Virus record (IMG/VR): IMGVR_UViG_3300031414_000005
Length of the DNA stretch: 64,000 nt
Reading direction: 5' to 3' (one strand)
Source: a virus
Lineage: Duplodnaviria > Caudoviricetes
Position numbers and translations under genes: made by a program. This document shows, piece by piece, positions 4,691 to 9,890 of this stretch. The first letter of the stretch is position 1. Each line of letters opens with the position of its first letter. The notes under the pieces are model-generated. The model searched no databases, was not told the origin of the DNA, and saw only the letters and a program-made list of their open reading frames with translations.

Positions 4691-5128
4691 ATGCCCAATA
4701 ACAATTCCCACGATTTCGGCTTCAGCTATTTAAAACCTGTGTATTACGGTACGCAAACTGGTGTGCTGGAAGGTAACCCGGTGGGTATCCAGGTCACCTT
4801 GCACGGCATGGCACTGATCGCAGCCAACAGCCCGTATGGCAGCAATGAGCTGACCGTGCGCTTTGAAGAGAGTCAGCGGCCGTTGAGTAAGGTCCTGTCG
4901 GTACTGGAGAACATCATCACCAGTGTGGAAAGTATCTACGACAACAACGAGCCGGACTGTAAAGATCTGAGCGGGTTTACCTATCGTCTGATCAAGCAGC
5001 TGGGGATCAATGTCAATGAGTTCATCAATGACAACAAAACCTACAGCCTCCACGATGTCGAACAGATCATTGAAAGCTTCCCGGTCAACCTGATCAAGGT
5101 CACAGTGATTGCACCTGTTGCACATTAA
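4691..5128 (+). CDS. Hypothetical protein
   Basis: ORF 4625-5128; ATG 4691 follows the upstream stop; ends at a terminator. Confidence 0.65.
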   Translation: MPNNNSHDFGFSYLKPVYYGTQTGVLEGNPVGIQVTLHGMALIAANSPYGSNELTVRFEESQRPLSKVLSVLENIITSVESIYDNNEPDCKDLSGFTYRLIKQLGINVNEFINDNKTYSLHDVEQIIESFPVNLIKVTVIAPVAH

Positions 5129-5136
5129 TATCCCTC

Positions 5137-5157
5137 AGGAGGCTTCGGCCTCCTTTT
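5137..5157 (+). terminator. Intrinsic terminator
   Basis: AGGAGGC-TTCG-GCCTCCT + TTT (UUCG loop). Confidence 0.8.
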
Positions 5158-5182
5158 CCAGTGTTTTATTTTTTGGTGACGT

Positions 5183-5560
5183 ATGACAAAGACAATTACC
5201 CGTGACGAGTTCTCCGTGTTGTACACGCCGGATTTCGGCCCAGAACAAACCCGCTTCTTCGAACGCCTGCAACCCAACGAACTCAACGTGGGTATGAAAG
5301 TGGTTATCCTGTTCTATGAGCAGCCGGATGGGTCATCGAAGTATGAGTTCTGGCGGGCCAAGCGAGTGGCCACATTCAGTAAACGCAGCACTGATAACTT
5401 CGAGACGTTCCTCCCGGCTTTCCTCGGTACTCATCACCCTCGTGGGGCCAGTCATGGTTTGTATGCCATGATTGTTGCGGTGGCGAAGGATACCCAACAA
5501 ATCCACATCACCGGCGTCAAAGACAGCTGGCAGTTTAATTTCCCAGTGACAGGTTTGTAG
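5183..5560 (+). CDS. Hypothetical protein
   Basis: 125-aa ORF, GGTG RBS. Confidence 0.65.
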   Translation: MTKTITRDEFSVLYTPDFGPEQTRFFERLQPNELNVGMKVVILFYEQPDGSSKYEFWRAKRVATFSKRSTDNFETFLPAFLGTHHPRGASHGLYAMIVAVAKDTQQIHITGVKDSWQFNFPVTGL

Positions 5561-5614
5561 TACCAAACATAACTCCATAATCTCATGTTATTCACAAATG
5601 AGGCGAACAGGCAA

Positions 5615-5929
5615 ATGAAAGCATTAAAACTGAAGTTTGATGGGAAAGGTGAAGTGTCGATGAACCTGGGGGGTTGCTGGGTGAACCAATTTGAAACCGA
5701 CGTGGCCATCATGAGCGGAGACAAAGTCGCGGCACAGAGCATCCATAACCTGCTGAACAAGCACGTGGAGTTTGTCCCCTACGAGAACATGGGGTCACGC
5801 GAAGCGGATTATTACCAGGCCACTCAACAACTTAACGCGGCACTGATGACCACTAACAAACACGACTTAACGGCGGTACAAGCCATGGTCAATAACTGCC
5901 CGTATCTGGAACTGGTGGTCGTGAATTAA
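5615..5929 (+). CDS. Hypothetical protein
   Basis: ORF 5585-5929; likely start is ATG 5615 after GAGGCGAACAGG. Confidence 0.6.
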   Translation: MKALKLKFDGKGEVSMNLGGCWVNQFETDVAIMSGDKVAAQSIHNLLNKHVEFVPYENMGSREADYYQATQQLNAALMTTNKHDLTAVQAMVNNCPYLELVVVN

Positions 5930-6007
5930 TGTAAGCGCCGGTGGGTTGACTCTATCTGATTGTATGAATTAACCCACCACTTTTCTAACTGAATAGGACG
6001 TAATGTA

Positions 6008-6181
6008 ATGAGCAACAAACCTGCTGATAATCTGGACGGTGAAATGAATTTCGATTCACTGGACGAACTGAACTTCGAAGCGGCTGCCGAGCGCAACGAC
6101 GCAAAGATTGATGAACTGGATGCAGAAGCTGCGGCTATCCCGGTCGACAACGGTTGTGGAGCCGGCGGTTGCATTATCTAA
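6008..6181 (+). CDS. 57-aa acidic peptide ending in an NrdA-like C-terminal CxxxxC motif (absent from ORF track)
   Basis: AGGA RBS; MSNKPADNLDGEMNFDSLDELNFEAAAERNDAKIDELDAEAAAIPVDNGCGAGGCII; preferred-codon usage; fills the gap before the RyR gene. Confidence 0.7.
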   Translation: MSNKPADNLDGEMNFDSLDELNFEAAAERNDAKIDELDAEAAAIPVDNGCGAGGCII

Positions 6182-6198
6182 TTTCCAAAGGGTAGAAC

Positions 6199-6591
6199 AT
6201 GACCGAGCTCACAACTGACGAGCATTTCACACAGTTATACACCGATGCAGAAGTGTTGTTAGCCGCTAAAGCTGCGCACTGTGCGGTGCAGGCCATCAAC
6301 GAAGCATTTGGGTTATACAAGCTCCCCCAGTGGATGCTGTGTAACGATTGGTATAAGGCCTCGTTTACCCGCAATGTGGAAGCTTACCTGTACCACGCGT
6401 ATCCGGTACGTAAAGTGCATGCGCATTGGGTCAGGCGGATGGAAAGTCAGGGATGGGTAGTTGGTGAAACTCGTTGCCGTGAGCAGAAGACCCACCCGAT
6501 GTTAGTTTCTTTTAATGATTTACCGATAGAAGAAAAACTTAAACTGAAACAGATGCGGGCGGTGGTCATGGCGTTCCGTAAAACGAACTGA
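6199..6591 (+). CDS. RyR-domain (ryanodine receptor repeat-like) protein
   Basis: VHAHWVRRMESQGWVVGETRCREQKTHPMLVSFNDLPIEEK matches the RyR motif HxxW...GWxxG...KTHPxLVP(F/Y)xxLxxxEK. Confidence 0.75.
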   Translation: MTELTTDEHFTQLYTDAEVLLAAKAAHCAVQAINEAFGLYKLPQWMLCNDWYKASFTRNVEAYLYHAYPVRKVHAHWVRRMESQGWVVGETRCREQKTHPMLVSFNDLPIEEKLKLKQMRAVVMAFRKTN

Positions 6592-6632
6592 CCCAAGCGG
6601 GGGTTGTGCCCCCGCCTACCGAGGACTTTGCC

Positions 6633-7151
6633 ATGTTAAAAGTATTTGCAGGTGCACGTCAGAGTGGGCGCACAACCCAGTTGATTGACCACACCATAAA
6701 GTATCTGCGAGACAGTCGCAAAGTGTCACTGATGTTTAGCAGTGAAGCCGAAGCGCACGATTTCTGTCGCATGTTGTTGATCACCTTGCTGGGTAAGCCG
6801 GTAGGGCACGATGTCCAAACTCAACATGTGGTAAAATTGCTGGAAAGCCTGGGTTATCAGGTTAATGTATTTTTGTTGTACAGCTTGCGTAATGTGTTAC
6901 GGAACAGTGCTCGCGACGAATTGGTCGTTTATGACGGCTGGCGTTGTTTGGGTGACGGGGAATTCAGAGAGATCGATCAATTGGCGAAAAGCCGGCGTGT
7001 GCTGACCGCGATTGATTTACCCTCCTACCGCAGCCTTAGCACCACCTATCGGACCCACAGCGCAGTGACGCTGCTTGCCCTAGAGGGGAAATATGATGAT
7101 TCAAGTAATGGCCCTGTACCGGCCGTGGATATCCCCCACGCTCATCAATAA
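6633..7151 (+). CDS. Degenerate P-loop NTPase (thymidine-kinase-like N-terminus)
   Basis: GAGGA RBS before ATG 6633; FAGARQSGRTTQLI (Walker A-like), LVVYDG (Walker B-like). Confidence 0.5.
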   Translation: MLKVFAGARQSGRTTQLIDHTIKYLRDSRKVSLMFSSEAEAHDFCRMLLITLLGKPVGHDVQTQHVVKLLESLGYQVNVFLLYSLRNVLRNSARDELVVYDGWRCLGDGEFREIDQLAKSRRVLTAIDLPSYRSLSTTYRTHSAVTLLALEGKYDDSSNGPVPAVDIPHAHQ

Positions 7152-7500
7152 ACTGCGTGCGGCATACGGGTCGAAATTCTATGATCTGACTGAGGTTGAG
7201 AACCCTGAACAATTCCGTGTGTGTTTGCGTTCAGCCTCGATCTCAGCAAAGGCGATCTTGACGGTGAACACCGCGTTGACTCGCCGGATCATGAAAGAAG
7301 AGGGGTTCGAGTACTTACTGGTGTACCCTTTCATAAACACCGAGTTTGAGAAAGTGCCGTCCAAAGACAGCTACATGACCCGTCAGGTTTATGACTGTCG
7401 TAATGAAGCGGGGGCATACCACCAGGAGATTCGCAACCGTAACCATATGGTCATCGAGTATGATCACCATCAAGGTTGGGTTGTGGAGGAGGTTGCATGA
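7093..7500 (+). CDS. Hypothetical protein
   Basis: 135 aa; AGAGGGG RBS; overlaps the previous gene; ATGA-coupled to the next. Confidence 0.65.
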   Translation: MMIQVMALYRPWISPTLINKLRAAYGSKFYDLTEVENPEQFRVCLRSASISAKAILTVNTALTRRIMKEEGFEYLLVYPFINTEFEKVPSKDSYMTRQVYDCRNEAGAYHQEIRNRNHMVIEYDHHQGWVVEEVA

Positions 7501-7991
7501 CTAACTGGGAAATACTCAGTGTGATTTGCACACTGTCGATTATAGTGAATGGGGTGTTTCTACGACGTTTATGGCGTCGGCGCAGGGCTCAGGGGAATCA
7601 GGCGCAGACGGTCTATAAACTGAAACAAACCATTTCCTATAACGAGCGTCGCATAGCAGACACCACTGCGAAACTGCTGACCCTGGAGGGTGAGATCCAC
7701 CAACTCCGTGATCAGCTGCTGCGAACAAGTATCCTCACCATCGGACTAGAAACAGCCAGGAACCATGAATTGGTCCATGGCTGCCCGATCGAGGAGATCG
7801 AACTGTATCACCAGATAGTTACATGCATAATGGGAAGCCGTCAGCCATCGCTACAAAAAGAGATGCTGGCAATGTTGGACATGGACGCCACCGACCGTAT
7901 TTTCATTAGCGGTTATGGTCATTTGCTTACGACCAAAGAAGAATGTGAACAGACAGAACTGTGCTGTCAACCCACTTCTGCAAAAATGTAA
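7497..7991 (+). CDS. Single-pass membrane protein with coiled coil
   Basis: GGAGG RBS; ATGA overlap; N-terminal TM WEILSVICTLSIIVNGVFL followed by RRLWRRRR and heptad-rich sequence. Confidence 0.65.
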   Translation: MTNWEILSVICTLSIIVNGVFLRRLWRRRRAQGNQAQTVYKLKQTISYNERRIADTTAKLLTLEGEIHQLRDQLLRTSILTIGLETARNHELVHGCPIEEIELYHQIVTCIMGSRQPSLQKEMLAMLDMDATDRIFISGYGHLLTTKEECEQTELCCQPTSAKM

Positions 7992-8012
7992 CTTTCTAAT
8001 TAAAGGCTTACC

Positions 8013-8591: not shown

Positions 8592-9890
8592 TTAATAGAA
8601 CACGCTGTCCAGTTTGTACTCCCGCACCTTCAGGGATGACACGTGCATTTTCTTCATGCGCAGCAGCATCCACTTGGTTCCCATTTTCACTACCCCGGCT
8701 GACATCCCCACCTTGTTCTGGGCGTTGTGCGCACCGGCACAATACTGACAGATATCGGTGAAACCGTGGTTGCAAAAGTCAGGACTGCGAATCATTACCC
8801 GCTGCCCAATCAAGCTGGCTTTGTTGTCAGACGTGATGAGGTGAGTCTGTTTCTTGGCGTCGAAGTAATAGCTGCTGATGAACCGGTCGATGTTGTCGTC
8901 GGTCAGGGTTTCCCAGAAGCCTACTTCGGTACCGCAGTCTTCGTCCAGGATCTGTACGTTCTGGGTGATACGGATCAACTCTTTTACAGCAGCCCCGCCT
9001 TCCGCTGTTGACTTACCACGGTCATAAGAACCATCGATCGCGGAGTTGGCCAGCGGTGGCAAGTCTTTGGGGTCCCACCCTTCCAGCAGGGAGTTCTTGA
9101 CCACCCGGCCTTCACCGGCACTGTTGAAGTCGGGTTCCAGGCCAAAGGAGATAAACATCTTCTTACGGGCAGTTGAGAAGAATTTCTCAGAGATAAAGAA
9201 GTCTTCGGCCACATCCCCTTTGAAGTCGGCTTTGTCCATCGCCACCAATTCATCCTGGATCTTGGCCATGGTCACCGGGTCGTTGAGCTGCTCTTTGTGT
9301 TCCTCAAACAACTCGTCGCGGCGTTTGATGATCGCCGGGTTGATCGTCAACGCTTTACGTGATGTCGTGGGTACACAGAGCGCCGTTAAGCCACCCAGGA
9401 AGTACCCGTTCTTCACTGACTGCAACATCTCAGTGGGTGTAAAGAAACCTTTCTCCGTGCGTCTGGCGTCGTCATCCGTGGGCAGACATCCTTTCTTGTA
9501 TACTCCTTTCAGTAACCCACCGCTGAAGGTCTGGTTGTAAAACCCAATCCGACCTTTAAACGGATCAATGAAGGACAGGTAGTTCCAGATCACAATCCCG
9601 ACATGGGTGTCAATCGGGCTGAGTACCGTGATAACGTCATCCGGGGTAACATGGATCGGGTCTTTGAATCGGAGTAATGGCTGGTCGGTGGACGTACCCT
9701 CAGCCACACGTACCGCCAACCCGTCTTCCAGGTAAAAGAACCCGTCCTTATCTTTGCGCAACAGATAGGGAATGTCCTCAGTGACGCCGGTGCTTTCAGA
9801 GATCGAGAACACCGAGATAAACCACTCTTTGCGGGTGTATGCTTCCGCTTTCATGGCTTTCAGGAAATACTGCTGTGCTGTTAACATCAC
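8592..9890 (-). CDS. rpoC: Virion RNA polymerase beta-prime subunit, C-terminal part (phiKZ gp80-like)
   Basis: Bridge-helix-like SYDRGKSTAEGG; beta-prime Zn-site motifs DCGT, RSPDFC and CQYCAG; size and position match the split vRNAP subunit. Confidence 0.85.
   Translation of the reverse strand: MMLTAQQYFLKAMKAEAYTRKEWFISVFSISESTGVTEDIPYLLRKDKDGFFYLEDGLAVRVAEGTSTDQPLLRFKDPIHVTPDDVITVLSPIDTHVGIVIWNYLSFIDPFKGRIGFYNQTFSGGLLKGVYKKGCLPTDDDARRTEKGFFTPTEMLQSVKNGYFLGGLTALCVPTTSRKALTINPAIIKRRDELFEEHKEQLNDPVTMAKIQDELVAMDKADFKGDVAEDFFISEKFFSTARKKMFISFGLEPDFNSAGEGRVVKNSLLEGWDPKDLPPLANSAIDGSYDRGKSTAEGGAAVKELIRITQNVQILDEDCGTEVGFWETLTDDNIDRFISSYYFDAKKQTHLITSDNKASLIGQRVMIRSPDFCNHGFTDICQYCAGAHNAQNKVGMSAGVVKMGTKWMLLRMKKMHVSSLKVREYKLDSVFY

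What the first reader, a model, noticed from the sequence alone, without database searches (positions are those of the whole stretch)
6008..6181. Free-standing mimic of the ribonucleotide reductase C-terminal redox tail
Seen: a 57-aa, highly acidic ORF with an RBS, missed by the ORF track, ending DNGCGAGGCII-stop. Established: class Ia RNR alpha subunits end in a flexible acidic tail with a CxxxxC pair (E. coli NrdA ends DDGCESGACKI, Cys754/Cys759), which shuttles electrons from thioredoxin/glutaredoxin to the active site. Here the tail exists without any catalytic domain. Inference: a trans-acting redox shuttle that boosts host or phage RNR, a partner for a tail-less NrdA elsewhere in the genome, or a decoy for Trx/Grx. 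I know of no description of such a stand-alone peptide.
Basis: partly seen in the sequence, partly recalled or inferred. Interest (0 to 1): 0.72.

Follow-up and report, generated by a model that had tools for sequence, protein, structure and literature searches.

The report
Free-standing ribonucleotide reductase tail microprotein
A giant bacterial virus that has no ribonucleotide reductase of its own makes a 57-residue protein that copies the two-cysteine "recharging" tail of its host's reductase and is predicted to dock on that enzyme; it is a divergent relative of a widespread small-protein family in phages and bacteria for which I found no description.

Summary
ORF 6008-6181 is a real gene: AGGA 9 nt upstream, dN/dS about 0.06, and a last 16 codons that carry only synonymous changes in two syntenic relatives. 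Its end (DNGCGAGGCII) matches the E. coli NrdA end (DDGCESGACKI) better than any of 200,000 composition-matched shuffles. A profile of 102 NrdA tails aligns to it end-anchored (hhalign E 7e-5).

The window lies in a complete 233-kb phiKZ-like jumbo phage with no NrdA, NrdB, thioredoxin or glutaredoxin, so any partner is a host protein.

A pattern scan then uncovered a large canonical family of 40-60-aa proteins ending DDGC[A/E]GGACK[I/L]. It occurs in 61 enterobacterial jumbo-phage records (SPN3US, phiEaH2, CR5, Machina and others), in about-60-kb phages, and in Neisseria, Eikenella, Kingella and Moraxella. All are annotated hypothetical, with no Pfam or NCBIfam model. Its tail is clearly homologous to NrdA tails (97.6%, E 4e-12). 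Our peptide is a divergent or convergent member (49%, E 2e-4).

A complex model places peptide residues 13-42 on Erwinia NrdA in the groove that holds the NrdB tail (score 0.74, best control 0.02).

Best reading: a trans-acting NrdA-tail microprotein aimed at host RNR. Whether it boosts or blocks is open. The scan noted a related tail peptide in another phage group before (e1-392497).

The parts
5941..5979 (+). Conserved stem-loop (10-bp stem GGUGGGUUGA / UUAACCCACC) between the upstream 114-aa gene and the microprotein gene, followed by ACUUUUC. It is probably a weak terminator or stabilising hairpin of the upstream transcript.
   Evidence: RNA fold -20.3 kcal/mol, z -2.5. Both arms and the loop are conserved in L001 and L002. 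The consensus scan does not call it a terminator.
5995..5998 (+). Shine-Dalgarno AGGA, 9 nt upstream of the ATG
   Evidence: Read directly. It is conserved in L001 and L002.
6008..6181 (+). 57-aa acidic microprotein gene (stop codon included)
   Evidence: ORF list. Homologues P0002 and P0003 are syntenic. dN/dS is about 0.06. A 98%-identical relative in run X3 has three changes in the ORF, all at third codon positions; my reading of the codons gives all three as synonymous.
6044..6133 (+). Residues 13-42 (MNFDSLDELNFE...DAEAA): an acidic, partly helical segment predicted to lie on NrdA in and beside the NrdB-tail groove
   Evidence: The complex model puts its interface at peptide 13-42 and NrdA 314-328, 344-350, 394-404 and 710-723. 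The known beta-tail cleft is alpha 341-349 and 711-724 (PMC11067019). In the monomer model residues 23-42 form a helix.
6134..6178 (+). Residues 43-57 (IPVDNGCGAGGCII): the invariant NrdA-type tail, with Cys50 (6155-6157) and Cys55 (6170-6172) spaced CX4C, two residues from the C-terminus
   Evidence: The tail is invariant in all three homologues despite 6-7 synonymous changes per pair. It aligns end-anchored to NrdA tails. It is disordered in the monomer model.

Best explanation
The gene encodes an intrinsically disordered, acidic microprotein whose last ~29 residues derive from, or copy, the flexible C-terminal redox tail of class Ia ribonucleotide reductase alpha (NrdA): an acidic linker followed by Cys-X4-Cys-X-Ile at the C-terminus.

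The phage has no reductase, thioredoxin or glutaredoxin, so the protein must act on host components.

Mechanism I commit to: the N-terminal and middle acidic segment (residues 13-42) docks on host NrdA in the groove that normally holds the C-terminal tail of NrdB. That groove lies next to where NrdA's own tail emerges. Docking tethers a surrogate CX4C dithiol beside the active-site entrance. The dithiol reduces the Cys225-Cys462 disulfide left after each turnover and is itself recharged by host thioredoxin or glutaredoxin. This gives host RNR an extra, or spare, recharging arm while the phage draws on host dNTP synthesis.

Shown: the gene is real and under strong selection; its tail resembles NrdA tails; the phage has no RNR; a canonical family of free tails exists, placed in phage nucleotide-metabolism clusters.

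Predicted by a model only: binding to NrdA at the beta-tail groove.

Inferred: the redox chemistry and the sign of the effect. Occupying the beta-tail groove could equally make it a brake.
For: The gene is real and its tail is the most constrained part.

Its tail is like NrdA tails. The BLASTP best pair is end to end. No shuffle of 200,000 reaches the observed score. hhalign against 102 NrdA tails gives E 7.3e-5.

The complete phage genome (direct terminal repeats, 100% complete) lacks PF02867, PF00268, PF00085 and PF00462.

A canonical free-tail family exists, with 419 small proteins at E<=10. It is in 61 phage records and in Neisseria, Moraxella, Eikenella and Kingella. Its tail is homologous to NrdA tails at 97.6% probability, E 3.6e-12.

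In phages the canonical gene sits among nucleotide-metabolism genes. These are thymidylate synthase and MazG, dCMP deaminase, and ThyX, dNMP kinase and a weak dCMP-deaminase domain.

Both cysteines are invariant in our three homologues and in a 45-sequence alignment of the canonical family. This fits a working dithiol rather than a mere plug.

Our peptide aligns collinearly to the family (hhalign 49%, E 1.7e-4). It is also the top-scoring ORF of the genome against a family HMM built without it.

Complex model of Erwinia pyrifoliae NrdA 1-736 with the peptide: ipSAE 0.74, 0.74 and 0.70 against a best control of 0.02. That mark was reached by 58 of 80 solved complexes and 2 of 110 mismatched pairs. 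The runs share at least 78% of contacts and the partner's pLDDT is at least 61. The counts hold only roughly because my own alignments were used. The interface (344-350, 710-723) coincides with the published beta-tail cleft (341-349, 711-724; PMC11067019).
Against: No experiment was done, and the complex score is a model's confidence. Solved alpha/beta-tail complexes exist, so the pass may reflect likeness learned from them.

I removed NrdA residues 737-761 for the model. That may have vacated space for the homologous part of the peptide.

The controls were unrelated natural proteins, not acidic amphipathic peptides.

At sequence level the N-terminal motif is not significantly like the NrdB tail. 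BLASTP finds nothing and shuffle P values are 0.07-0.9.

The tail of our peptide departs from every NrdA tail seen (CGAGGCII against C[E/A][S/G]GACK[I/L]; Lys is lost). The peptide also lacks the family's VEGG[V/F]D motif.

A family HMM with HMMER's composition correction does not detect it.

It is not in the family's usual genomic slot.

Binding in the beta-tail groove excludes NrdB, which argues for inhibition rather than help.

The host is not identified; Erwinia NrdA is a stand-in.
Confidence: 0.45

Rival explanations
1. It is an inhibitor or brake of host RNR, a bacterial and phage counterpart of yeast Sml1. By occupying the NrdB-tail groove it keeps NrdB off NrdA. Its tail competes with NrdA's own tail for the active site or for the reductants. 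This would shut down host dNTP synthesis, or couple it to stress in bacteria: in Neisseria the canonical gene sits in the IscR-controlled isc operon.
For: The predicted interface is the beta-tail cleft. From my own knowledge, NrdB C-terminal peptides are classical competitive inhibitors of class I RNR.

Sml1 is a small RNR large-subunit inhibitor acting on R1 regeneration (PMC6382339 citing Zhang et al. 2007).

In Neisseria and Eikenella the canonical gene lies between iscS and iscU, behind an Rrf2/IscR gene.
Against: Phages without RNR depend on host dNDP supply. The canonical gene is co-located with dNTP-synthesis genes, which fits help rather than harm.

A pure blocker would not need both cysteines and the exact NrdA tail to be invariant.

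There is no sequence relation to Sml1.
Confidence: 0.25
2. It is a decoy or sponge for host thioredoxin or glutaredoxin. The free tail is simply an abundant substrate that diverts or titrates the host disulfide reductases, and it does not bind NrdA.
For: The tail is the recognised substrate of Trx and Grx in NrdA. From my own knowledge, an NrdA 737-761 peptide forms a defined mixed-disulfide complex with E. coli Grx1.

The tail is the invariant part of the protein.
Against: A decoy would not need the conserved acidic N-terminal and middle segment, which is also under purifying selection (dN/dS 0.06 over the whole ORF). That segment is the part the model places on NrdA.

A catalytic reductase is hard to titrate with a substrate that it turns over.
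Confidence: 0.1
3. It is unrelated to RNR. It could be a metal or Fe-S binding microprotein (two CX4C pairs in a dimer), a RiPP precursor (acidic FxLD-like leader plus a Cys-Gly core), or an acidic DNA-mimic anti-defence protein. Under this reading the tail resemblance is convergent.
For: The canonical gene lies in the isc operon of Neisseriaceae.

An ESM Atlas look-alike cluster is auto-named 'putative FxLD family lantipeptide', at score 0.84, which is lead level only.

Both Cys follow Gly, as in azole-forming peptides.

A chance phmmer hit to SAM-methyltransferase motif I (LDVGCGWGG) shows that the D.GCG.GG core is not unique.
Against: The phage has no YcaO and no radical SAM enzyme. The last 40 residues contain no Ser or Thr, so lanthionine formation is impossible.

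The isc context is confined to Neisseriaceae. Moraxella, Pasteurella and others have unrelated neighbours.

The family tail is homologous to NrdA tails over 20 columns at E 3.6e-12.

The strongest constraint is on the Cys tail, which does not fit a DNA mimic.
Confidence: 0.12
4. It is a decaying remnant of the 3' end of a lost nrdA gene and has no function.
For: The last ~29 residues align to the NrdA tail from the TRDG region onwards. The phage lineage lacks nrdA.
Against: It has its own RBS and start codon. About 28 residues at the N-terminus are unrelated to NrdA, yet conserved.

dN/dS is 0.06, and only in-frame indels occur across three phages whose synonymous sites are near saturation.

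The gene is retained in L002, where the neighbouring RyR-domain gene is absent.
Confidence: 0.03

Closest known systems
C-terminal redox tail of class Ia RNR alpha (E. coli NrdA residues ~737-761, Cys754/Cys759)
   Same: Both are acidic and flexible. Both have Cys-X4-Cys with the second Cys two residues before the C-terminus, a terminal Ile, and D-[D/N]-G before the first Cys. The peptide gives an end-anchored profile match.
   Different: The peptide is not attached to a catalytic barrel, and no PF02867 domain exists anywhere in the phage. The residues between and after the cysteines differ (GAGG and I-I against E[S/G]GA and K-I). About 28 residues at the N-terminus are unrelated.
Canonical free-standing tail family found here (e.g. 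SPN3US ACQ60_gp032, phiEaH2/Stratton STRATTON_255, CR5_113, N. meningitidis NMBH4476_0838 / NMO_1220), all annotated 'hypothetical protein'
   Same: Size is 40-60 aa. Both have an acidic N-terminal [F/L/M]D.D.L-type motif and an NrdA-type CX4C-X-[I/L] end. Both occur in enterobacterial jumbo phages that lack RNR. The hhalign match is collinear.
   Different: Our peptide lacks VEGG[V/F]D and the GGACK[I/L] signature. It has a longer Ala/Glu-rich helix. It is not next to thymidylate synthase and MazG. Homology is only marginal (49%).
C-terminal tail of NrdB (E. coli beta residues ~360-375), which binds the alpha cleft formed by helices 341-349 and 711-724
   Same: The model places peptide residues Leu18, Leu21 and Phe23 against alpha 348-350 and 711-719, which is the same cleft. 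The local motif LDELNFE recalls DDLSNFQL.
   Different: The sequence likeness is not significant against composition-matched shuffles. The motif is internal, not C-terminal. There is no counterpart of the radical-transfer Tyr356.
Sml1 (yeast) and related small disordered RNR regulators
   Same: Both are small, largely disordered proteins that act on the large subunit and interfere with, or take part in, tail-mediated regeneration of the active site (PMC6382339).
   Different: There is no sequence relation. Sml1 has no redox Cys pair that copies the R1 tail, and it is eukaryotic. The sign of the effect here is unknown.
GrcA/YfiD 'spare part' of pyruvate formate-lyase (own knowledge; also raised in earlier scan notes)
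   Same: The concept is the same: a free-standing copy of the functional C-terminal piece of a large radical enzyme, supplied in trans.
   Different: The enzyme and the chemistry differ (a glycyl-radical domain against a dithiol shuttle). GrcA replaces a cleaved domain. Here the host enzyme keeps its own tail.

Membership tests
Class Ia RNR alpha C-terminal redox tail | Two cysteines spaced CX4C, with the second two residues from the C-terminus, preceded by an acidic flexible stretch | tested here: met
   The peptide ends ...VDNGC-GAGG-C-II, against E. coli ...DDGC-ESGA-C-KI. No shuffle of 200,000 reaches the observed score. hhalign E is 7.3e-5. The tail is disordered in the AF2 model.
Class Ia RNR alpha C-terminal redox tail | Covalently continuous with the catalytic alpha/beta barrel (PF02867) | tested here: not met
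   The ORF is 57 aa. There is no PF02867 match anywhere in the complete 232,948-bp phage genome.
Class Ia RNR alpha C-terminal redox tail | Reduces the active-site disulfide (Cys225-Cys462) and is re-reduced by thioredoxin or glutaredoxin | not testable with these tools
   This needs enzymology. Only a docking model on NrdA is available.
Canonical free-standing NrdA-tail microproteins (SPN3US gp032 / STRATTON_255 / NMBH4476_0838 type) | C-terminal signature [D/E]D[G/N/A]C[A/E]GGACK[I/L] | tested here: not met
   Our peptide has DNGCGAGGCII. The spacing, the Gly before the first Cys, the third-position Gly and the terminal Ile are kept. GGACK is not.
Canonical free-standing NrdA-tail microproteins (SPN3US gp032 / STRATTON_255 / NMBH4476_0838 type) | Nearly invariant VEGG[V/F]D motif before the tail | tested here: not met
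   The motif is absent; ERNDAKIDELD stands in its place.
Canonical free-standing NrdA-tail microproteins (SPN3US gp032 / STRATTON_255 / NMBH4476_0838 type) | Detectable profile similarity over the whole length | tested here: inconclusive
   hhalign gives 49% probability, E 1.7e-4, with 38 collinear columns. A family HMM built without our peptide finds nothing with the composition correction. Without the correction, our three sequences are the top 3 of 2,443 targets, E 0.002-0.06.
Canonical free-standing NrdA-tail microproteins (SPN3US gp032 / STRATTON_255 / NMBH4476_0838 type) | In jumbo phages: a position between a ~150-aa gene and the MazG-like gene, downstream of thymidylate synthase | tested here: not met
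   The homologue of the ~150-aa gene is at genome 192181-192654. It is followed directly by a 393-aa ORF, with no small ORF between them. Our gene is about 49 kb away.
RiPP precursor (lanthipeptide or azole peptide) | Cognate modifying enzyme encoded nearby or in the genome, and modifiable residues in the core | tested here: not met
   The phage has no YcaO and no radical SAM enzyme. There is no Ser or Thr in the last 40 residues. Neighbouring genes have no such domains. LanB, LanC and LanM were not searched for.
NrdB C-terminal tail mimic | Sequence likeness to the host NrdB tail beyond composition | tested here: not met
   BLASTP finds no alignment. Shuffle P is 0.07-0.10 for our peptide and 0.09-0.9 for canonical members against their own host's NrdB.
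NrdB C-terminal tail mimic | Occupies the alpha cleft formed by helices 341-349 and 711-724 | tested here: inconclusive
   The model supports it: ipSAE 0.74 against a best control of 0.02, with interface at 344-350 and 710-723. The cleft is defined in PMC11067019. This is a prediction only, and possibly from memory of solved complexes.

The most novel reading that the evidence does not exclude
Phages and some bacteria encode a previously unrecognised class of RNR accessory microproteins. These are bipartite 'two-tail' proteins that dock in the NrdB-tail groove of NrdA and deliver a free copy of NrdA's own CX4C redox tail. A virus with no reductase of its own could thereby directly tune, boost or throttle the turnover of the host's class Ia RNR. 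Neisseria would use the same device under IscR control to couple dNTP synthesis to iron-sulfur or oxidative status.
Probability: 0.4. Interest if true: 0.9.

Novelty: new variant of a known kind. Interest (0 to 1): 0.8.

Why it matters
Re-reduction of the active site by the alpha C-terminal tail is a key and poorly visualised step of class Ia RNR turnover. From my own knowledge it is often rate-limiting. As far as I could find, no bacterial or phage protein factor acting at this step is known.

A natural, soluble, trans-acting tail would be a ready tool for trapping and imaging that step. It would also show how RNR-less jumbo phages (SPN3US, phiEaH2, CR5 and this phage) manage host dNTP supply.

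The same family sits in the isc operon of Neisseria meningitidis and its relatives. That suggests an unstudied link between Fe-S or iron status and DNA-precursor synthesis in these bacteria.

All members are currently annotated 'hypothetical protein', or are not called at all.

Tried and rejected
Searches for relatives of our peptide:
- megablast of 5000-8000 against phages found no match.
- tblastn of the peptide against phages gave only a chance-level hit in Erwinia phage Faunus (E 0.2).
- The search for related loci with A1 in viral contigs found nothing.
- Exhaustive phmmer over 1.8 billion representatives found only P0002.
- Exact-pattern scans for the GCGAGGCII-stop variant gave 0 hits in viral contigs and 0 in metagenome contigs.

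Family and structure libraries: Pfam, PHROGs and NCBIfam have no family for our peptide or for canonical members. The PDB sequence search gave only a chance hit to SAM-methyltransferase motif I.

Repeated upstream motif: the loop sequence is not repeated in the window beyond chance.

Expression: the public RNA-run contigs do not cover the ORF. X1 covers 6405-6671 and X2 covers 6174-6368, so nothing can be said about transcription.

Complementary distribution with phage nrdA: 0 of 10 carrier phages have PF02867. The non-carrier control Ea35-70 also has none, so the pattern does not discriminate.

Co-variation of the last residue (I or L) between the small protein and the NrdA of the same Moraxella genome: 1 of 3 agree, so no signal.

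Sequence-level NrdB-tail mimicry is not significant.

ESM Atlas look-alikes all score below 0.9 and are leads only.

Synteny of our gene with the canonical slot is absent.

Text search for the tail strings in papers gave 0 hits. Zhang et al. 2007 (PMC1892911) is not held, so I cite it second-hand.

Full report
1. THE OBSERVATION

The ORF is exactly as described. ATG is at 6008 and TAA at 6179-6181. It encodes 57 aa that end DNGCGAGGCII, and AGGA lies 9 nt upstream. It has 14 acidic against 3 basic residues and a pI of about 4.05. I read the E. coli K-12 NrdA C-terminus from the genome record.

2. IS IT A GENE?

Two homologues exist, of 54 and 53 aa. Both lie in the same gene order on phage contigs L001 and L002. 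In L002 the RyR-domain gene that follows our ORF is absent, but the small gene is kept.

The DNA alignment shows indels of 9 and 12 nt only. Pairwise dN/dS is 0.06. In the last 16 codons each pair has 6-7 synonymous and 0 non-synonymous differences. A 98%-identical relative in a public run has three changes in the ORF. All are at third codon positions, and my reading of the codons gives all three as synonymous.

The gene is therefore real, and the Cys tail is its most constrained part. Public RNA contigs do not cover it, so transcription remains untested.

3. CONTEXT

The window belongs to a complete 232,948-bp virus record with direct terminal repeats. It is a phiKZ-like jumbo phage. It carries a multisubunit RNA polymerase beta piece at 8592-9890 that is 39% identical to those of Erwinia Ea35-70-like phages.

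The whole genome has no RNR large or small subunit, no thioredoxin and no glutaredoxin. It also has no YcaO or radical SAM enzyme. This removes the 'partner of a tail-less phage NrdA' idea and weakens a RiPP reading.

4. HOW GOOD IS THE RESEMBLANCE TO THE NrdA TAIL?

- BLASTP against the full 761-aa NrdA returns the two C-termini, end to end, as the best pair (E 0.008 for that one comparison).
- 120 Enterobacterales NrdA sequences show a nearly fixed ...DDGCE[S/G]GACKI.
- The end-anchored score of our tail against it was reached by none of 200,000 shuffles of the peptide's own composition.
- Against a profile of 102 distinct NrdA tails, hhalign gives 62.5% probability and E 7.3e-5. The 27 end-anchored columns start at the position of the NrdA TRDG motif.

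Caveats apply. The hypothesis was formed after seeing the match. CxxxxC near an ORF end is not rare in itself (5 of 2,441 ORFs). A chance match to SAM-methyltransferase motif I shows the D.GCG.GG core recurs elsewhere.

5. THE WIDER FAMILY

I scanned viral contigs for D-[D/N]-G-C-x-x-G-x-C-x-I-stop. Besides about 50 NrdA genes, ten hits were short free-standing ORFs of 36-51 aa ending DDGC[A/E]GGACKI.

A profile search then found 419 small proteins at E<=10. The consensus is M..[D/E]FDLDNLD.LL..FDGV.VEGGVD...EDDGC[A/E]GGACKI.

They occur in these places:
- 61 phage records of Enterobacterales jumbo phages, including SPN3US, phiEaH2, Stratton, Asesino, Machina, Huxley, ChrisDB, CR5, Derbicus and Phobos.
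- A group of about-60-kb phages.
- Neisseria, including N. meningitidis, and Eikenella, Kingella, Moraxella and Pasteurella testudinis.

All named members are 'hypothetical protein'. None matches Pfam or NCBIfam.

The family's last 20 columns are homologous to NrdA tails at 97.6% probability, E 3.6e-12. tblastn with the family even retrieves genuine NrdA ends.

In phages the gene sits among nucleotide-metabolism genes. In five jumbo-phage records it lies downstream of thymidylate synthase and shortly upstream of a MazG-annotated gene, or its unannotated counterpart. In pEa_SNUABM_1 it lies near dCMP deaminase. In the 60-kb phages it lies next to ThyX, dNMP kinase, RdgC and a weak dCMP-deaminase domain.

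None of 10 carrier phage genomes has NrdA. This is not discriminating, because the non-carrier Ea35-70 has none either.

In Neisseria and Eikenella the gene lies between iscS and iscU, behind iscR. In other bacteria its neighbours are unrelated.

The five carrier bacteria I checked all have NrdA with its own CX4C tail, and all have NrdB. The small protein is therefore an extra tail, not a detached one.

6. IS OUR PEPTIDE A MEMBER?

This is only marginally supported.
- hhalign of our three sequences against 45 family members gives 49% probability and E 1.7e-4. The alignment is collinear from the N-terminal acidic motif to the last residue.
- A family HMM built without our sequences misses them when HMMER's composition correction is on.
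- Without that correction it ranks them first among all 2,443 targets.
- Our peptide lacks VEGG[V/F]D and GGACK.
- It is not in the canonical slot. In our phage that slot has no small ORF.

I therefore treat it as a divergent relative or an independent copy of the same design. That design is an acidic docking part followed by an NrdA-type tail.

7. MECHANISM

I modelled Erwinia pyrifoliae NrdA (residues 1-736, alignment A5) with the peptide (alignment A6).
- The verdict was 'supports binding; does not show it'.
- ipSAE was 0.74, 0.74 and 0.70 against a best control of 0.02.
- That mark was reached by 58 of 80 solved complexes and 2 of 110 mismatched pairs. These counts hold only roughly, because my own alignments were used.
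- The runs share at least 78% of contacts, and the partner's pLDDT is at least 61.

The interface is peptide 13-42 against NrdA 314-328, 344-350, 394-404 and 710-723. Leu18, Leu21 and Phe23 lie against 348-350 and 711-719.

The published binding cleft for the NrdB C-terminal helix is alpha 341-349 and 711-724 (PMC11067019). NrdA's own tail leaves the fold right after this region. The same paper notes that alpha is resolved to Gln742 and that its tail crosses the beta tail there. Docking would thus put the surrogate CX4C where the native one starts.

On its own the peptide is predicted to be mostly disordered, with a helix at 23-42 (pLDDT 57.5).

Limits of this evidence:
- Solved alpha/beta-tail complexes exist, so the pass may be from memory.
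- I deleted NrdA 737-761.
- The controls were not acidic peptides.
- The host is unknown. A phyllosphere metatranscriptome contig at 99% identity is only a weak hint of a plant-associated enterobacterium.
- At sequence level the N-terminal motif is not significantly NrdB-like.

8. BOOST OR BRAKE?

Both cysteines and the whole tail are invariant, and the canonical gene travels with dNTP-synthesis genes. This favours a working dithiol that helps turnover. I give that reading about 0.45.

Occupancy of the NrdB groove and the IscR-operon setting in Neisseria favour a Sml1-like brake. I give that about 0.25. Sml1 is a small inhibitor acting on R1 regeneration (PMC6382339).

A Trx/Grx decoy gets about 0.1. 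A function unrelated to RNR gets about 0.12. A dead nrdA remnant gets about 0.03 and is contradicted by the selection data.

9. NOVELTY

I found no paper describing a free-standing class Ia tail. Sequence-string and keyword searches, and two RNR-family surveys, gave nothing.

Earlier AI notes of this scan report a related host-tail peptide in another RNR-less phage group (e1-392497). They also report truly detached tails in Saccharibacteria (e1-2742689, e1-3071033). These are leads that agree with this report. They are not independent proof.

Noticed in passing
L069:5001-5210 (N. meningitidis); L080:4001-4147 (Eikenella): In Neisseriaceae the canonical free-tail gene lies inside the isc operon, in the order iscR-iscS-[small gene]-iscU-iscA. 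This suggests control by IscR and a link between Fe-S or iron status and RNR. Gene callers often extend it upstream to 69 aa.
   Followed up: partly
window 5941-5979: A 10-bp stem-loop with a 19-nt loop, conserved in sequence in L001 and L002, lies between the upstream 114-aa gene and the microprotein gene. It is not a canonical terminator and is not repeated elsewhere in the window.
   Followed up: partly
window 6199-6591: A 130-aa RyR-domain protein (PF02026, E 2e-8) directly follows the microprotein gene. It is present in L001 but missing from L002, so it is a dispensable neighbour.
   Followed up: partly
P0198, P0199 (ENA contigs of 586 and 878 bp): Two 89-aa predicted proteins join the first ~45 residues of IscU (PF01592) to a complete free-tail sequence. 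They may be real fusions, recombinants or assembly chimeras of the iscS-X-iscU region.
   Followed up: no
P0178: One family member carries a tandem duplication of the VEGGVDSENDDGCEGG block, giving three cysteines.
   Followed up: no
L018:6354-7333 and the six related ~60-kb phage contigs (L004, L012, L030, L042, L053, L068): In these phages the free-tail gene starts at or within a few bases of the stop of a 277-aa gene of unknown function whose product ends ...DDELEDL. It lies in a block with RdgC, dNMP kinase, ThyX and a weak dCMP-deaminase domain. Jumbo phages have an 834-bp (277-aa) gene two genes upstream of their copy, but I did not compare the two.
   Followed up: no
ESM Atlas look-alike cluster: A 74-member Pseudomonadota cluster of ~50-aa proteins similar to our peptide is auto-named 'putative FxLD family lantipeptide'. 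If it is the canonical free-tail family, whose N-terminus contains FDLD, that name is probably a mis-annotation.
   Followed up: no
genome C1:190996-192654 (outside the window): In our phage a homologue of the ~150-aa gene that precedes the canonical tail gene in SPN3US, CR5 and ChrisDB is followed directly by a 393-aa ORF. The canonical slot is therefore empty here. A thymidylate synthase homologue is at 229395-230534.
   Followed up: partly
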